Of a stretch of 64,000 nucleotides of DNA, positions 37,471 to 55,400 are shown piece after piece; the stretch's first letter is position 1; each line of letters begins with the position of its first letter. The stretch is from the NCBI RefSeq assembly GCF_006345805.1, contig NC_043010.1, positions 35,402,001 to 35,466,000 on the forward strand. The letters run 5' to 3'. A program made the position numbers. This DNA comes from Octopus sinensis. Its lineage: Eukaryota.

Positions 37471-40400
37471 GTAATTATACATGTATTAGGGTAAGGCCCT
37501 AAGTGCAGCTATCATGACTGTATCGTGTTAGCTGGACGTTTGTCTGTGAAGAAGCTATGCAGAACTATGATCTGGCCAATTCCAACAACAATCACTGCCA
37601 CTGTCTCACATATAGACCAAAAAAATACTCTCTCATTCAGGAACTCAGCAAAAGCTCGCCCACTGGACTCCCGCAGCTTGAAGTGAGTCTGATAGTCAGC
37701 AATGGTGTTCAGTTGTGCATGTGTATTCACTGAAGTCTGCTCCATCTGAAGATAGAGAAGAAAAAAATACGAAAATTATATTTTAGGTGGAATTCATAAC
37801 AAGTCCTCAATAAAACAAGTGTTAATGACATTGTTTTGAAAGTGTTTAGAAGACACTTAAAATCAGATTTAAAAATATATATACAAAACTGAGTGTAAAT
37901 GTCACAATGTGTGTGTTGTGTGTGTGTGAGAGAGAGATACTAATCATTTGACATTAGTAGTAAATTTACATTAGCTTCAGAATAAAGTGTTGGTTGAGTA
38001 CAAAGTGTAATGTGACAAAGGAACAGGAAATTATGCAATGAATTTCATCAGTTTACAACTATTCTCTGCTACAGGATGCAGTGCACTCACAAATGAGTTC
38101 TTTGGGAAAGCATTTACTAGCATTTCATTTTAGAAGCTCTGAGGAAGCTAGAAGGTAGTGCACATGTATTCAGAGATGCATCTTATAGCAGAAACAGCTT
38201 TAGGCTAATGAAGTTCATTGCCTAAATTCTTGTTGTTTTGTCATTTAATTTCATATACAATTAGCTGAAAATGACAAAGACCTGAGAGTGACGTTTACCA
38301 CTTATCAAACCAGAGCTCCCTTATTGCATGCCACTTACCAAACTGTGGCTTCCTCAATGTCTCATGGCAGTACTATAACCTTTAATAAGCATCATGCACA
38401 AAACTCACAACTCCTTCCTAACTTTCTGCCAAGTAAAAAGATTAACACACATACTCAGTATACTAAGTTCTGTTTCTGCAGTTCTACCACTCAATATAAG
38501 AACATTCTTAAATCAAAAATGGAGACCAGAAATCCAGAGTTATATTTTACAGATTCAATGCTTTAGTGAAGAAAATCTGTTAGTTAACATGCAGTTATAT
38601 CATGTCACTAGCTATTCGGCCTACAAGAAATAGTAACCAATGTTAATTTCCTTTTCTTTAAGATGGTAGGACATGATTTTGAAGGAGATTTGGCTGTTAT
38701 TGCTAATAGGCCTAGTGACTGCATAGAGACTCCATCCCAATGATAACACTTTAAAACACTGTCTTGTTATCTTAAAAATACTTAGTTGAACAGATTTTTT
38801 TTGTTAGTGTACAAAGTTTATAAATGCATGGCAAAAAGTCAATCAAATTTAGCAGAGAATTTAATTCAAATTTCTCCAGAATGCAACCCAAAATCCCAAT
38901 CACATGATCACCATTTTAAATTTTGTAGAGGGAAATTTTACTGCTTCATTGATCTTGCATATCATAGTTCAGAATTTAAAGTTAATAAGTTTACTAGAGA
39001 CTTAGTCACTATATGCAGCAAGTCAAGCAACTACATAACAACTGAAAAGAAACTAATGTTACACTTGGACAAGTCCACCTTGCATGCTTCTCCTTTGCTA
39101 TAGTCATTCATACCAGCAAGCTAACAAGGGAGATTATGTGGTTACTTGACATGCTAGAAATAACGGCCAAATTTCTTCCAATCAAACCAACCATTTCAAA
39201 AAAAGTAGTCACTAACCAATATAGTCCTAGATATACAAAAAAGATTGGCTGATCATAGCTGGAACACCTTTGGTCATAGGTCTGCTCAACCAGGGCTGAC
39301 TTGGGGTTAAACATTAATAGCAGTTATTCAAGACTGGACAACTGAAGGAATGCAATACACTGACTCATAAACTGCATTCTACACAACAAAATGATTGCAT
39401 GTTGTATATAATATGGATGCCCTCAACCAGATACAAGTACCATAGGCTATTCCTAGTTATTTGAACAAGTACCTAGGTACTGTAAACCTGCTTGAGCAAG
39501 GCTAACCTGCATTTCATAGCAACAACTAGAGAAACTCCTTTACTGATTCATGTGATCTTCCATTTAATCCCTTTTGATACCAAACTACCTGAGACTGTCT
39601 TTGGTTCTATGATGCAATCTTCTTATTTTAAAGCAATTTCAGTTAAAACCTCCCATCAAAATTTCATGTTGATTTTATGTTCCAAACACCAGCTCAATAA
39701 CGACTAAGTTATTTTACTAAATACTCCATTATTTTCAAAATCAATTGAAACAAATGCAGTGCATTTCAACAAAAATATAGTAACAAGAGGGTTACATATA
39801 CTAAAGAGTTTGATGGTGGAGAAGATTTGGTGGTAACATTGAGCAGGTTGATTTCACAGAAGCTCTCTTGCTGGCTTATGTAAGATCACCTATTTTAAAG
39901 CCAGTATTGTGTTTGTTAGGGAAAAATTTGGCTGAGACACTGAGCAAGTCAAACTACAACATAGCTCCCTTGTCTGGTTTTTCTTTTATTCTTTTACTTA
40001 TTTAGACTGTGGCCATGCTGGGGCACCACCTTGAAGAATTTTAATTGAACAAATTAATGCCAGTACTAATTTCGTTAAGCCTGGTAGTTATTCTATTAGT
40101 CACTAGGCTTAACAAAATAATTTTATTAACCCTTTTGATACCCACCCACTTGAAGTTGTCTTCAATCTTATAATACAAAATTGTCTGTATTAAGATCATT
40201 TCCATTTAAAATAAAATCTCCCATTGTTATATAAAGTTATGTTCCAAACACCACTTTAATAATGAAAATATTTTATACCAAAGCCTTTCAAATTCTTGAT
40301 TATATTCAGAATTAATTGAAACAAATAAGCACAGTAATTTAGTAAAAAATAAAGTCATGAAAAAACTTCAAAGAATTTCTGAAGTGGTATTTTGTTGGCA

Positions 40401-52400: not shown

Positions 52401-55400
52401 AGCTGAGCTCTCCATCTACAAGAGAACAGACAAACACCATTTTCCAGTTGACCGCACACAAACAAAAGTTAAATAAAAATAAGCAATAATTGAAATAAAC
52501 AAAATCAAAATAAATATAACAAAATGTAGCAAGGAATATTATTGTTGTTGCTGTATTGCTCATGACTAACATAAGCTAATTATTCTGTTGTGCACAAATA
52601 AAAGCCATGGCTACAGTGGATTTGTACAGAGATTATGAGCCAACCAGCCAACCATTTCTTTTTAAGAGCTAATGTTTAGTTATGACTATTTTTGGTATTG
52701 ATGTTCCACTACCTTAAAGCTAATTTAACAACTTTGAATTAGGACATGGATGCTTTTATTTAAATTTTTACACAGATGATATGAAAATAATATTCAGTGC
52801 TACTTTGGTGTGTGATCTACAATTTAAAGAGAAATTACTTTCGGTTACTTTTTAGTTTGCTTTGCAATTTCTAAATTTTTTATAAATTCTTTTGTACATA
52901 CTTAGCATTGTTAATGTGTTTTTTTCAAAATTGTTACTATTTTAATAATAATAAAACCATGTTTCACTTATGTCTTAGTAAATAATAAAAAACCAAGAAT
53001 AAACAATATGCTAATTAAAATAAGCACGTAGATCACAAAAGTTTGAGAGCTGCCCGTTTTGCAACGTAAAGTTGGCAAAATTTCACCACTTTTCTCTTCT
53101 CTTCAAGCTTCCTGCATTTCTCCACCACAACAATGACATGGTGCAACATTTTCTGCATCATTTAAAAGGCCATTTTTTCATGAAGATACAACTGCCTTTA
53201 TCTCATTGCTTATTGCATTGTAAAAATCTTTAGGTAACATCTGAAGGGTTTTTAGAAATTGAAAAGTAACCTAAAGTAATATGCCTTTAAATTGTAGATC
53301 ACACACCAAAATAGCCCCTGATATTCTATGACTAAAACTAAACTATTTGTTTCTCATCACTGTGTGAAAATTATTATTAACACCATGTAGCTTCTTATTA
53401 GTACTATTAGTATTGAAGGTGGCAAGCTGGCAGAATTGTTGCCATACCAGACAAAATGCTTAGCAGCATTTTATCTGTCTGTTTTGAGTTCAAATTCCAC
53501 TGAGGGCAACATTGCTTTTCATCCTTTCAGTGTTGGTAAAATAAGTACCAGTCAAGCGCTGAGGTCAATGTAATTGACCAGCCCCAACCTAGCCAAAAGT
53601 TCAGGCACTGTGACTTTAATAGAAAGGATTATTATTATTATTATTATCATTACTATTATTGTGGCCTAGTGGTTAGGGTGTTAAACTCAAAATTGCAATA
53701 TCGTGATTTCAATTCCTGGACTGGCCAAGGTATTGTGTTCTTGAGCAATCCTCTTCATTTCACATAGCTCTGCATCTAATATATGACACATTGTGCATCT
53801 GTACAGGCAATGTCAGTTTGATGGAGGGAGTGAGCTGATAATGTCCAGCACAAACATTTGATTACTATAAACAAATCTGCACAGCTAGTTCAGCAAGAAA
53901 TTGTGGAACTCTCATCTACTACAGATAATGATTATTATTAACAGTAGTAGTTCCTCCACATTTAATTCAATAACTACATTCTACTTAGGTCAGCTTCAAC
54001 CTAAGGTAGAATAAAACAATGTTATATACTGGCAAGATCAAGTCAATTGCATATAAAACCTTCCCCAATTAAATATCTATTTAAGATGATTATTATTATT
54101 ATTATTATTATGGTGGATTTCGTGCAAATGCCAGAAAATATTATCATTAATACAATAGCTAAGTGAGTAAGATATTGAACTATTGGCTCACAGCAATGTT
54201 TTGTTATGTCTCTGGCAACAACTTGCTTAATTACTTGTCTCAGTATTCCTCTTTTCTAATCATTGTTTTCTTTTAAATAATTACCATTATCTTTATATTT
54301 ATTCTACATCTATTTCATGCTTGAATAGGTTGGATAGTTCAACAAATGCACACATTTTCATGGATAATGTTAATACAACCAAGGAGATAGAGCAAAGAAA
54401 GTGCTTAAATATGCATATCCAAAGGTCTATGTGAAAACTAAAATGCCAGTGTGCATGCTGTTGCATATTAATAGATGCATTTGTCAATGTGCATATGCCA
54501 GTGTGCACAAATATGTAACTACACCTATTCATATATATACAGGAATAAAAGCCATAGATTTTATACAGGAAAGATATGAGATTGAATAACAATGATGCAT
54601 TCAAGGACATTAAAGCACAGAGGTCTCAATGAGAAATTAAAACAGGTTTGTATGAATCATTATTGCTACAAGCAAAAACAAATTTGCTATACAGGCAAGA
54701 CGCCACAAATATATTGAGTACAAGGAAATGCAATTGTCTGATCAATCTAGTTTCAGTTGCACTAAGTGATGCATGATTAAATAAAGAATAAAACATTGAA
54801 AAACAATCTAAACACTCCATATGAAACCTGCACTTCTTTCATGAACAGAGACCTTGAAAACATTCAATGGTAGGGTGAGATATGACAATCTTATATTTTT
54901 TGACAATCACTGCAAGCAGCAATCTTGTTCTCCATGTACCATGTCTAAGATAACAATAATCATGAACCTCCATACCCTCTAGTACCCCAACACAACATAA
55001 TTGGGATGGTTTTCCTGAAGCCAACTGGTAAAGCCATTGAGTATCTTCTCCTCTATCTGCTTCTTCTTTTCAGTTTCTCAGTTGTCACCAAATGCTCAAA
55101 GCTCCTTATGTCAGTGAGAAGCTTTCCAATGGTTTTTTGCTCATCTAAGGAGCTCATTGTTTATTACTGTCAGCATAAGATACCTTCAGCTTTCTTCTAA
55201 GGAACCACATCTTTGTAACACAATTTTGTGGTTGTTGATGTTCCAATACACAATAACCTCAAAGTTACTACAAATGCTAAACATGAAAATATGATCTTTC
55301 TTGGCAAGATCATCTTTCACATAAGATCTGCTTCCCAGATCTTTCTGCTCAGGGTCAGCAACAAAGTTTAAGTAGGCCTACATCTAAGACAATTATGCTG

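What the first reader, a model, noticed from the sequence alone, without database searches (positions are those of the whole stretch)
37512..52415. p24-gamma (TMED3/7) gene with two duplicated, intact alternative terminal exons: a swappable membrane-anchor/sorting module
Seen: two minus-strand exons 14.4 kb apart. Each begins at the same phase-0 acceptor (AG|ATG GA), each is an intact ORF encoding coiled coil + TM + tail, and each has its own candidate poly(A) signal. By my manual ungapped alignment 37 of the first 70 residues are identical, so the duplication is old and both copies appear conserved. I found no signal-peptide or GOLD-domain exon between them. Known: p24/TMED cargo receptors oligomerise via the coiled coil and bind COPI/COPII via the tail (FF motif); vertebrates have separate TMED3 and TMED7 genes. 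Inference: one upstream GOLD domain (beyond 64000) is spliced to either exon, giving paralogue-like diversity from one locus by alternative last-exon choice.
Basis: partly seen in the sequence, partly recalled or inferred. Interest (0 to 1): 0.8.

Follow-up and report, generated by a model that had tools for sequence, protein, structure and literature searches.

The report
Octopus p24-gamma gene, two alternative last exons
An octopus cargo-receptor gene can end in either of two anciently duplicated last exons that swap the protein's stalk, membrane anchor and tail; this is real but already in public gene models, and the same arrangement is annotated in many other molluscs.

Summary
Two minus-strand exons (52415..52191 and 37745..37512) each start at a polypyrimidine-AG|ATGGAG acceptor. 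Each is an intact ORF for the C-terminal third of a p24/TMED protein.

The window holds no signal-peptide or GOLD exon, between the two exons or anywhere else (tblastn and a profile HMM).

Octopus sinensis RefSeq isoforms X1 (named TMED3) and X2 (named TMED7) are identical over residues 1-143. X1 then uses the distal exon and X2 the proximal one. Roughly 1-kb unnamed cephalopod-like transcript contigs show the same swap.

New here: 11 of 11 same-species isoform pairs tested diverge at the same boundary. They cover gastropods, bivalves and cephalopods, so the architecture is mollusc-wide. A single origin could be neither shown nor rejected.

An AlphaFold model places the exon boundary exactly at the start of one long helix (143-210) that forms stalk and membrane anchor.

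Corrections:
- The distal exon has no canonical poly(A) hexamer for 3.46 kb, because a 3.4-kb tandem array follows its stop.
- A third annotated 3' exon (50927..50850) lies between the two.

The locus is already annotated. I found no paper describing it. Moderate interest.

The parts
52191..52415 (-). Proximal alternative terminal exon 'A' (coding part, 74 codons plus TAA). It encodes the helical stalk, the transmembrane segment and the tail ...[12 protein letters not shown].
   Evidence: ORF and sequence. PF01105, 58.5 bits; 100% identical to residues 144-217 of O. sinensis XP_029644670.1 (P0001). Kyte-Doolittle 19-residue maximum 2.08 at residues 49-67.
52416..52445 (-). 3' splice site of exon A: a moderate polypyrimidine tract ending in TAG, phase 0.
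   Evidence: The boundary coincides with the point where P0001 and P0046 stop sharing exons.
52030..52059 (-). Candidate poly(A) signals of exon A: AATAAA at 52059..52054 (132 nt after the stop) and ATTAAA at 52035..52030. A G/T-rich stretch and a genomic A-run follow.
   Evidence: Sequence motifs only; no 3'-end data.
37512..37745 (-). Distal alternative terminal exon 'B' (coding part, 77 codons plus TGA). It encodes the stalk, the transmembrane segment and the tail ...HSFFTDKRPANTIQS.
   Evidence: PF01105, 54.2 bits; 100% identical to residues 144-220 of the 220-aa Octopus proteins P0041 and P0046; hydropathy maximum 2.23 at residues 44-62. AlphaFold helix 143-210 in P0046.
37746..37775 (-). 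3' splice site of exon B: a long polypyrimidine tract ending in CAG, phase 0.
37461..37487 (-). The only poly(A)-like hexamers near the stop of exon B, both non-canonical variants: AATACA at 37487..37482 and AATATA at 37466..37461.
   Evidence: One search shows no AATAAA or ATTAAA for 3462 nt downstream.
34056..37469 (.). A 3.4-kb TA/CA-rich tandem array (periods 10, 26 and 52) that starts about 45 nt after the stop of exon B. It is either part of a long 3' UTR or lies just past a non-canonical cleavage site.
   Evidence: Tandem Repeats Finder. GC 0.20-0.26..
33988..34050 (-). First canonical hexamers downstream of exon B: ATTAAA at 34050..34045 and AATAAA at 33993..33988. They lie just beyond the tandem array.
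50850..50927 (-). Third annotated 3' exon between A and B. Its acceptor is ggcag|AAT, phase 0. It codes 25 residues unrelated to p24, then TAA. The product would be a 168-aa protein with signal peptide, GOLD domain and linker but no stalk or membrane anchor.
   Evidence: O. vulgaris CAI9732890.1 (P0047) shares 143 residues with P0001 and P0046; its 25-residue tail maps at 100% to 50927..50853; sequence.
52416..64000 (-). Part of the intron upstream of exon A. It is at least 11.6 kb long and holds no p24 exon. The donor and all GOLD exons lie beyond the window.
   Evidence: no hit to residues 1-143.
37746..52190 (-). The 14.4-kb interval that is skipped and spliced out when exon B is used. Apart from the 50927..50850 exon, it holds no p24 coding sequence and no ORF that reaches a Pfam cut-off.
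   Evidence: 0 of 4 ORFs from this interval reach a curated cut-off.

Best explanation
This is the 3' end of one p24-gamma (TMED3/7-like) cargo-receptor gene of an Octopus (O. sinensis/vulgaris group), on the minus strand.

The constitutive exons encode the signal peptide, the GOLD beta-sandwich and a linker (residues 1-143). They lie beyond position 64000. The last constitutive donor joins in phase 0 to one of two homologous terminal exons.
- The proximal exon A (52415..52191) has its own stop and an AATAAA 132 nt downstream.
- The distal exon B (37745..37512) is used if exon A is skipped and transcription runs on for 14.4 kb.

Each exon encodes, as one unit, the whole helical stalk (coiled coil), the single transmembrane helix and the short cytosolic FF tail. 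The same lumenal GOLD domain is therefore mounted on one of two different anchor and sorting modules.

Inferred, not shown: the choice is a competition between two routes. One is the weaker proximal 3' splice site plus proximal cleavage and polyadenylation. The other is the distal exon's stronger polypyrimidine tract.

Also inferred: the two modules differ in which other p24 subunits they assemble with, and in membrane and coat behaviour. In cephalopods the type-specific fixed differences sit mostly in the transmembrane segment.

The exon pair comes from an old tandem exon duplication. Synonymous sites are saturated. Both copies are under purifying selection.
For: Shown:
- Both exons are intact, homologous (38/74 identical, E = 7e-33) and p24-like.
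- O. sinensis RefSeq isoforms X1 and X2 are identical over 143/143 N-terminal residues and end in B and A respectively.
- The unnamed roughly 1-kb contigs P0002 and P0043 share 148/148 N-terminal residues and carry an A-type and a B-type end.
- There is no GOLD or signal-peptide exon in the window: 9 tblastn queries, and an HMM with best E = 2.2 over 3467 segments.
- The AlphaFold2 model of P0046 (mean pLDDT 79.7) has strands 32-124 (GOLD), a low-confidence linker, then one helix 143-210 that begins at the exon junction. Per-block pLDDT is 90-97 over residues 151-200.

Age and constraint:
- The exons share 127/222 nt. Identities by codon position are 40, 58 and 29 of 74. pS is 0.84 (saturated) against pN 0.31. 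The flanks show no similarity.
- Octopus against the unnamed cephalopod-like sequences: A 56/74, B 57/77, constitutive part 105/143.
- Octopus against Argonauta: B 70/77 against constitutive part 114/143.

Generality:
- 11 of 11 same-species isoform pairs share an identical prefix of 132-151 residues, then diverge over the whole last ~75 residues at the homologous ...TA(L/M)T(L/M/F)|(M/L)E point.
- The pairs are Octopus, the unnamed cephalopod-like pair, Haliotis, Gigantopelta, Patella, Mizuhopecten, Mercenaria, Ruditapes, Dreissena, Mytilus and Sinanodonta.
- Cluster look-ups add X1/X2 names in oysters, further mussels, abalones and scallops.

Type-specific differences: 10 columns are fixed within cephalopod A (2 sequences) and within B (4 sequences) but differ between them. 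Eight of the ten lie in the transmembrane segment.

Background: a TMED review states the roles of the GOLD domain, coiled coil, transmembrane domain and FF/KK tail (passages read in PMC7045115).
Against: - I saw no RNA reads or 3'-end data for this species. The RefSeq models are predictions whose evidence I could not inspect.
- The shared donor and the GOLD exons are outside the window, so sharing is inferred from database proteins, not read from this DNA.
- Exon B has no canonical poly(A) hexamer for 3462 nt and runs straight into a 3.4-kb tandem array. Its 3' end is therefore undefined.
- A third annotated 3' exon (50927..50850) shows the locus is not a clean two-way switch.
- The functional difference between the modules is inference only. 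Both keep the SFFTDKR motif, the transmembrane Gln and a similar length.
- The count of fixed differences rests on only 2 A-type sequences.
Confidence: 0.85

Rival explanations
1. There are two tandem p24-gamma genes. Each terminal exon belongs to its own gene, with its own promoter, signal peptide and GOLD exons.
For: The exons are 14.4 kb apart and only 51% identical, which is what old tandem paralogues would look like. The sources name the two products differently, TMED3 and TMED7.
Against: - No signal-peptide or GOLD exon lies between the exons or anywhere in the window.
- The O. sinensis products are 143/143 identical upstream of the junction, and the unnamed cephalopod-like pair 148/148, while the terminal parts are only about 51-55% identical.
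- The same pattern holds in 11 of 11 pairs.
- Separate genes of this age would not keep identical GOLD domains.
Confidence: 0.03
2. Exon B, or exon A, is an unused relic of an exon duplication that gene predictors chain into a model. Only one isoform is really made.
For: I saw no expression data from this species. Exon B lacks a canonical poly(A) signal nearby and abuts a large tandem array.
Against: - Both ORFs are intact.
- pN (0.31) is far below pS (0.84), and second codon positions are the best conserved.
- Exon B is 70/77 identical in Argonauta and 57/77 in the unnamed cephalopod-like sequences. Exon A is 56/74 identical there. That is as conserved as the constitutive part.
- Short contigs of 947-1062 nt encode full-length proteins with either end (P0002, P0043, P0044).
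- In oysters both forms occur on many short contigs, 13 and 17.
Confidence: 0.04
3. This rival concerns origin only. The cephalopod A/B pair arose by a cephalopod-specific exon duplication, independent of the X1/X2 exon pairs of bivalves and gastropods. The shared architecture would then be convergent re-use of the same conserved intron position.
For: - In the tree of the terminal region (50 rows, 77 columns), cephalopod B (support 100/98) does not join the clade that holds 7 of the 9 non-cephalopod long-tail isoforms plus Liolophura (98/97).
- Holding cephalopod A and B together costs only 3.15 log-likelihood units, p-AU 0.421.
- Holding B with the long-tail isoforms costs 15.9 units, p-AU 0.172.
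Against: - Neither constraint is rejected, and deep nodes are unresolved with 77 columns.
- Divergence within pairs is similar in all 11 pairs, 36/76 to 45/73 identical.
- B-type and long-tail ends share a longer tail that usually ends in Ser.
- The architecture is present in all three classes sampled, so one origin is the more economical reading.
Confidence: 0.35

Closest known systems
RefSeq gene models of this very locus: Octopus sinensis XP_029644669.1 ('TMED3 isoform X1') and XP_029644670.1 ('TMED7 isoform X2'). Also O. vulgaris CAI9732889.1 and CAI9732890.1, and O. bimaculoides A0A0L8GJP4.
   Same: The exons are identical. X2 ends in exon A and X1 ends in exon B, each 100% identical to the window, with a shared 143-residue N-terminus.
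   Different: Nothing differs in sequence. The records are automatic annotations. They carry no statement about exon homology, age, module boundaries or distribution, all of which are worked out here.
X1/X2 isoform pairs of TMED7-like genes in other molluscs (Haliotis, Gigantopelta, Patella, Mizuhopecten, Pecten, Argopecten, Mercenaria, Ruditapes, Dreissena, Mytilus, Sinanodonta, Magallana, Crassostrea, Ostrea, Saccostrea).
   Same: The swap point is the same, the swapped unit is the same (stalk, transmembrane segment and tail, about 73-78 residues), and divergence within pairs is similar at 47-62% identity.
   Different: - Orthology of the cephalopod exons to the short-tail and long-tail exons of other classes is unresolved.
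- Cephalopod B has its own signature, WSICETVAV...AEFLNERVF.
- Genomic exon order in the other species could not be checked, because no eukaryote genome collection was available.
Vertebrate p24-gamma paralogues TMED3 and TMED7. The gamma subfamily is TMED1, 3, 5, 6 and 7 according to the abstract of PMC10620864, seen.
   Same: The family and domain order are the same. There are two gamma-type proteins whose stalk, transmembrane segment and tail differ. The sources name the two octopus isoforms after these two paralogues.
   Different: - Vertebrates use two whole genes with different GOLD domains. Here one GOLD domain is shared and only the last exon differs.
- The tree gives no orthology of A or B to vertebrate TMED3 or TMED7. 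The only vertebrate row, hagfish TMED7, is unplaced.
Alternative last exons and tandemly duplicated, mutually exclusive exons in general. This class is recalled from general knowledge and comes from no call.
   Same: A shared upstream donor, two homologous exons each with its own acceptor and stop, and only one of them in any one mRNA.
   Different: Most textbook duplicated mutually exclusive exons are internal. Here the duplicated unit is the terminal exon, so the choice is coupled to poly(A) site choice and replaces a whole membrane anchor.

Membership tests
p24/TMED (Pfam PF01105 EMP24_GP25L) | Sequence match to the family profile above the curated cut-off | tested here: met
   Exon A scores 58.5 bits and exon B 54.2 bits against a cut-off of 25.9. 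Both cover profile positions about 117-181 of 182.
p24/TMED (Pfam PF01105 EMP24_GP25L) | N-terminal signal peptide and lumenal GOLD beta-sandwich | tested here: inconclusive
   Neither is present in the window. Both are present in the database proteins that end in these exons. The AlphaFold model of P0046 has helix 9-26 and strands 32-124, and PF01105 is precomputed for P0001 and P0046. The link to this locus rests on those records.
p24/TMED (Pfam PF01105 EMP24_GP25L) | Lumenal helical stalk (coiled coil) followed by one transmembrane helix near the C-terminus | tested here: met
   The AlphaFold model has a continuous helix 143-210 with per-block pLDDT 90-97 over residues 151-200. Hydropathy maxima are 2.08 (A, residues 49-67) and 2.23 (B, residues 44-62). 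Coiled-coil heptads were not scored.
p24/TMED (Pfam PF01105 EMP24_GP25L) | Short cytosolic tail with a di-phenylalanine motif that binds coat proteins | tested here: met
   Both exons carry SFFTDKR followed by 4 (A) or 7 (B) residues. The role of the motif is taken from passages of PMC7045115. Binding was not tested.
p24 gamma subfamily, TMED3/7 branch | Groups with TMED3/TMED7 rather than with the alpha, beta or delta subfamilies or with TMED1/5/6 in a family-wide tree | not tested
   The only evidence is source names (TMED3, TMED7, 'p24 family protein gamma-3') and best hits. No tree that includes other subfamilies was built.
Alternative last exons derived from a tandem exon duplication | The two exons are homologous | tested here: met
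   38/74 identical, E = 7e-33. They are the only two hits of the C-terminal profile in the window.
Alternative last exons derived from a tandem exon duplication | Upstream exons are shared and each mRNA carries only one of the two exons | tested here: met
   143/143 (O. sinensis models) and 148/148 (the unnamed ~1-kb contigs P0002 and P0043) identical N-termini, with one type of end each. This was not checked with reads from this species.
Alternative last exons derived from a tandem exon duplication | Each exon has its own 3' splice site, stop codon and poly(A) signal | tested here: inconclusive
   Acceptors and stops are present for both. Exon A has a canonical AATAAA at +132. Exon B has only the variant hexamers AATACA and AATATA nearby, and its first canonical hexamer is at +3462.

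The most novel reading that the evidence does not exclude
The swappable stalk, membrane-anchor and tail exon pair is a single invention that has been kept since before gastropods, bivalves and cephalopods split. It may be older still: amphioxus records are also named 'isoform X2', and their X1 partner does not sit in the same 90%-identity cluster.

On this reading molluscs meet the need for two p24-gamma receptors by exon choice, where vertebrates use the separate genes TMED3 and TMED7. The transmembrane segment, which holds 8 of the 10 fixed A/B differences in cephalopods, would decide which p24 hetero-oligomer or transport route the shared GOLD domain enters.
Probability: 0.35. Interest if true: 0.55.

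Novelty: new member of a known kind. Interest (0 to 1): 0.4.

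Why it matters
It is still debated what each part of a p24 protein contributes: GOLD domain, stalk, transmembrane helix and tail. Here nature holds the GOLD domain constant and exchanges everything from the first stalk residue to the C-terminus. It has kept both versions under purifying selection in octopods, in a second cephalopod-like lineage and, in the same architecture, in gastropods and bivalves.

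That is a ready-made contrast for asking what the anchor module does in partner choice, lipid interaction and COPI/COPII cycling. It is also an example of exon choice standing in for gene duplication.

For genome annotation there is a practical point. Lone terminal exons of this gene can be called as separate partial genes. An 83-aa record named 'p24 family protein gamma-3, partial' from Mytilus galloprovincialis sits in the long-tail cluster.

The locus itself is already in RefSeq, so the value lies in the comparative reading, not in a discovery at these coordinates.

Tried and rejected
- **GOLD exons in the window.** tblastn with 9 proteins and a profile HMM over 3467 six-frame segments found none.
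- **A further copy of the terminal exon.** None found; the next best C-terminal HMM hit has E = 1.
- **Similarity of the exon flanks (±1 kb), as a sign of recent duplication or gene conversion.** Only low-complexity matches with E ≥ 0.18.
- **Other genes between or around the exons.** 0 of 10 ORFs of 92-161 aa reach a Pfam curated cut-off, four of them from the 37.7-52.2 kb interval.
- **Dating the duplication by tree.** 50 rows by 77 columns leave the deep nodes unresolved. Two AU tests rejected neither a cephalopod-specific origin (p = 0.421) nor a clade of B with the non-cephalopod long-tail exons (p = 0.172).
- **Amphioxus.** The two sequences I compared (P0105, P0116) have the same terminal type, and the four other Branchiostoma entries in the looked-up clusters carry no X1 name. 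No X1 partner was retrieved, so this lead stays open.
- **Literature.** Five full-text searches listed no paper on alternative terminal exons of a p24/TMED gene. 'exon duplication' together with 'emp24' gave 0 papers. In the review PMC7045115 'isoform' occurs 0 times, and both 'splice' passages concern mutant alleles. For all other papers I saw only listings and the starts of abstracts.
- One search was a broken script that printed nothing. One search printed far more rows than needed.
- **Not done.**
All window searches were exon by exon, and the upstream exons are not in the window anyway.
  - I did not use complex prediction, the search of protein representatives, the atlas or the Rfam tools.
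  - The only genome collection on offer covers bacteria and archaea, so exon order and synteny in other molluscs stayed unchecked.
  - The metagenome and viral collections and paper supplements were closed. I do not expect them to bear on the claim.

Full report
**What is in the sequence**

On the minus strand there are two open reading frames, each starting at a phase-0 acceptor with the same first two codons.
- Exon A: ...GTTCTCTTGTAG|ATGGAG at 52415.
- Exon B: ...CTCTATCTTCAG|ATGGAG at 37745.

Exon A codes 74 residues and stops at 52193..52191. Exon B codes 77 residues and stops at 37514..37512.

The peptides align without gaps. Each matches the last third of Pfam PF01105 (emp24/gp25L/p24) well above the curated cut-off. 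Each has one strongly hydrophobic segment followed by SFFTDKR and a short tail.

**Whose gene it is**

I searched each exon on its own.
- Exon A is 100% identical to the end of Octopus sinensis XP_029644670.1, 'TMED7 isoform X2', 217 aa (P0001).
- Exon B is 100% identical to the end of a 220-aa protein found in O. bimaculoides (P0041). It is equally identical to the end of a near-identical 220-aa protein shared by O. vulgaris and O. sinensis, XP_029644669.1, 'TMED3 isoform X1' (P0046).

The two O. sinensis isoforms are identical over residues 1-143 and differ only from the exon junction onwards. The window is therefore octopus DNA and shows nothing human-like.

**Is there a GOLD domain between the exons?**

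No. tblastn with nine full-length p24-gamma proteins, two of them the octopus proteins themselves, hit only the two terminal exons in the whole 64 kb.

I built a profile HMM from the N-terminal part of 50 sequences and ran it without filters against 3467 six-frame segments of at least 12 residues. It gave nothing better than E = 2.2. The C-terminal profile found exactly the two exons (3.7e-41 and 1.2e-39; next best E = 1).

The intron before exon A is longer than 11.6 kb.

**Transcript-level support**

Two unnamed records, P0002 (224 aa, contig 1062 nt) and P0043 (225 aa, contig 975 nt), are the closest non-octopod relatives. They share an identical N-terminal 148 residues. P0002 ends in an A-type sequence and P0043 in a B-type sequence.

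Contigs of about 1 kb that encode the full protein cannot contain the large introns, so they are spliced messages. I take them to be from another cephalopod lineage. This is an inference from similarity only: they are 70-75% identical to the octopus protein, less than Argonauta's 84%, and I did not trace them.

**The swapped unit is a structural module**

I made an AlphaFold2 model of P0046 from a 49-sequence alignment (mean pLDDT 79.7, pTM 0.47). It shows:
- a signal-peptide helix, residues 9-26;
- eight strands, residues 32-124 (GOLD);
- a low-confidence linker;
- a single helix, residues 143-210, with per-block pLDDT 90-97 over residues 151-200;
- a disordered tail.

The exon junction (143|144) is the first residue of that helix. 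The alternative exon therefore replaces the entire stalk, membrane anchor and tail, and nothing else. The domain roles are taken from passages of the review PMC7045115: stalk and GOLD in oligomerisation, transmembrane domain in lipid and membrane-protein contacts, FF/KK tail in COP binding.

**Age and constraint**

At the DNA level the exons share 127/222 positions. Identities by codon position are 40, 58 and 29 of 74. The proportion of synonymous differences is 0.84, which is saturated, against 0.31 for non-synonymous differences. The flanks share nothing.

| Comparison | Exon A | Exon B | Constitutive part |
|---|---|---|---|
| Octopus vs the unnamed cephalopod-like sequences | 56/74 | 57/77 | 105/143 |
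| Octopus vs Argonauta | not available | 70/77 | 114/143 |

Both exons are at least as conserved as the rest of the protein. Neither is a decaying relic.

Ten columns are fixed within A (2 sequences) and within B (4 sequences) but differ between the types. Eight of them lie in the transmembrane segment. This is suggestive, but it rests on few sequences.

**It is not an octopus peculiarity**

A full-length search (1373 hits at E ≤ 1e-20, best 120 listed) returned many mollusc records named 'isoform X1' and 'isoform X2'. I compared 11 same-species pairs: Octopus, the unnamed cephalopod-like pair, Haliotis rufescens, Gigantopelta aegis, Patella vulgata, Mizuhopecten, Mercenaria, Ruditapes, Dreissena, Mytilus coruscus and Sinanodonta.

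In 11 of 11 pairs the two proteins share an exact prefix of 132-151 residues. They then diverge over the whole last ~75 residues at the homologous ...TA(L/M)T(L/M/F)|(M/L)E point. Identity within pairs is 36/76 to 45/73.

- A scan of all 149 stored proteins also paired Magallana gigas P0004 with P0086.
- Cluster look-ups show X1/X2 names in five oyster species, four to five Mytilus species, four Haliotis species and four scallops. Both oyster forms occur on many short contigs.

**One origin or several?**

The tree of the terminal region (50 rows, 77 columns) gives these results:
- Cephalopod A (99/98) and cephalopod B (100/98) are each recovered as a clade.
- A clade supported 98/97 holds 7 of the 9 non-cephalopod long-tail isoforms plus the chiton Liolophura. 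This supports a duplication older than the split between bivalves and Patella.
- Deep nodes are open. Haliotis X1 and Gigantopelta X1 are long and unplaced.

AU tests reject neither 'cephalopod A plus B are one clade' (p = 0.421) nor 'cephalopod B plus all long-tail isoforms are one clade' (p = 0.172). I therefore leave the origin open and lean slightly towards a single old origin.

No row supports orthology of A or B to vertebrate TMED3 or TMED7. The only vertebrate row is hagfish TMED7. I used no human sequence.

1. Poly(A) signals.
   - Exon A has AATAAA at +132 and ATTAAA at +156.
   - Exon B has only the variants AATACA (+25) and AATATA (+46), and no canonical hexamer until +3462.
   - The cause is a 3.4-kb TA/CA-rich tandem array (34056..37469) that begins about 45 nt after the stop of B.
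2. A third 3' exon lies between the two, at 50927..50850.
   - O. vulgaris CAI9732890.1 (P0047, 168 aa) shares the 143 N-terminal residues, then carries 25 unrelated residues.
   - Those residues map at 100% to 50927..50853, behind a ggcag|AAT acceptor, and are followed by TAA.
   - The product would be a GOLD domain without stalk or anchor.
   - Only this one model supports it, so it may be a minor or spurious transcript.

**How it most likely works**

Shown:
- one gene with two homologous terminal exons;
- a shared N-terminus;
- module boundaries that match the exon boundary;
- constraint on both exons.

Inferred:
- The last constitutive donor either pairs with the proximal acceptor, whose pyrimidine tract is shorter and interrupted, and the message is cleaved at the proximal AATAAA. 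Or exon A is skipped and the donor pairs with the distal acceptor, which has a long uninterrupted tract.
- The two products carry the same cargo-facing GOLD domain into different p24 assemblies or transport kinetics, through different stalks, transmembrane helices and tails.

**Novelty and verdict**

The locus is already annotated as two isoforms in RefSeq, and so are its counterparts in many molluscs. In that sense it is known. Five full-text searches found no paper describing alternative terminal exons in a p24/TMED gene (listings and abstract starts only, plus passages of one review).

I file it as a new, undescribed member of a known kind: alternative last exons from a tandem exon duplication, a class I recall from general knowledge rather than from a call.

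Noticed in passing
window 50850-50927 (-): A third annotated 3' exon of the same gene. The 25-residue tail of O. vulgaris CAI9732890.1 (168 aa) maps here at 100%, behind a cag acceptor. It would give a GOLD-only protein without stalk or membrane anchor. Only one model supports it.
   Followed up: partly
window 34056-37469: A 3.4-kb TA/CA-rich tandem array (periods 10, 26 and 52; GC about 0.2-0.26) starts about 45 nt after the stop of exon B. It produces long spurious ORFs in several frames on both strands. It may be 3' UTR, and its length may be uncertain in the assembly.
   Followed up: partly
window 5600-6950, 9100-9760, 14300-16300, 19600-20800, 27870-28490, 29730-31860; also 39978-40104 and 41472-41591: Several families of interspersed repeats of about 120-210 nt, 60-87% alike, occur in both orientations and look like SINE-type elements. 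Two copies lie in the interval between the alternative exons. The His-rich ORFs at 28130-28531 (-) and 32031-32483 (+) have similar translations and no Pfam match, so they are probably copies of one element.
   Followed up: no
window 1-483: An exact 189-nt direct repeat (1-189 and 295-483, 100% identical) sits at the very start of the window.
   Followed up: no
database records, not the window: Branchiostoma TMED7-like records of three species and a hybrid are named 'isoform X2'. No X1 sits in the same 90%-identity clusters. Amphioxus may therefore have a substantially different second isoform of the orthologous gene. I did not retrieve it.
   Followed up: partly
database record, not the window: An 83-aa Mytilus galloprovincialis record named 'p24 family protein gamma-3, partial' clusters with the long-tail isoforms. 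It looks like a lone terminal exon annotated as a gene of its own.
   Followed up: no
window 52019-52030 (-): A genomic run of 12 A lies about 25 nt downstream of the AATAAA of exon A. It could cause internal priming in oligo-dT libraries and mimic or blur the true 3' end.
   Followed up: no
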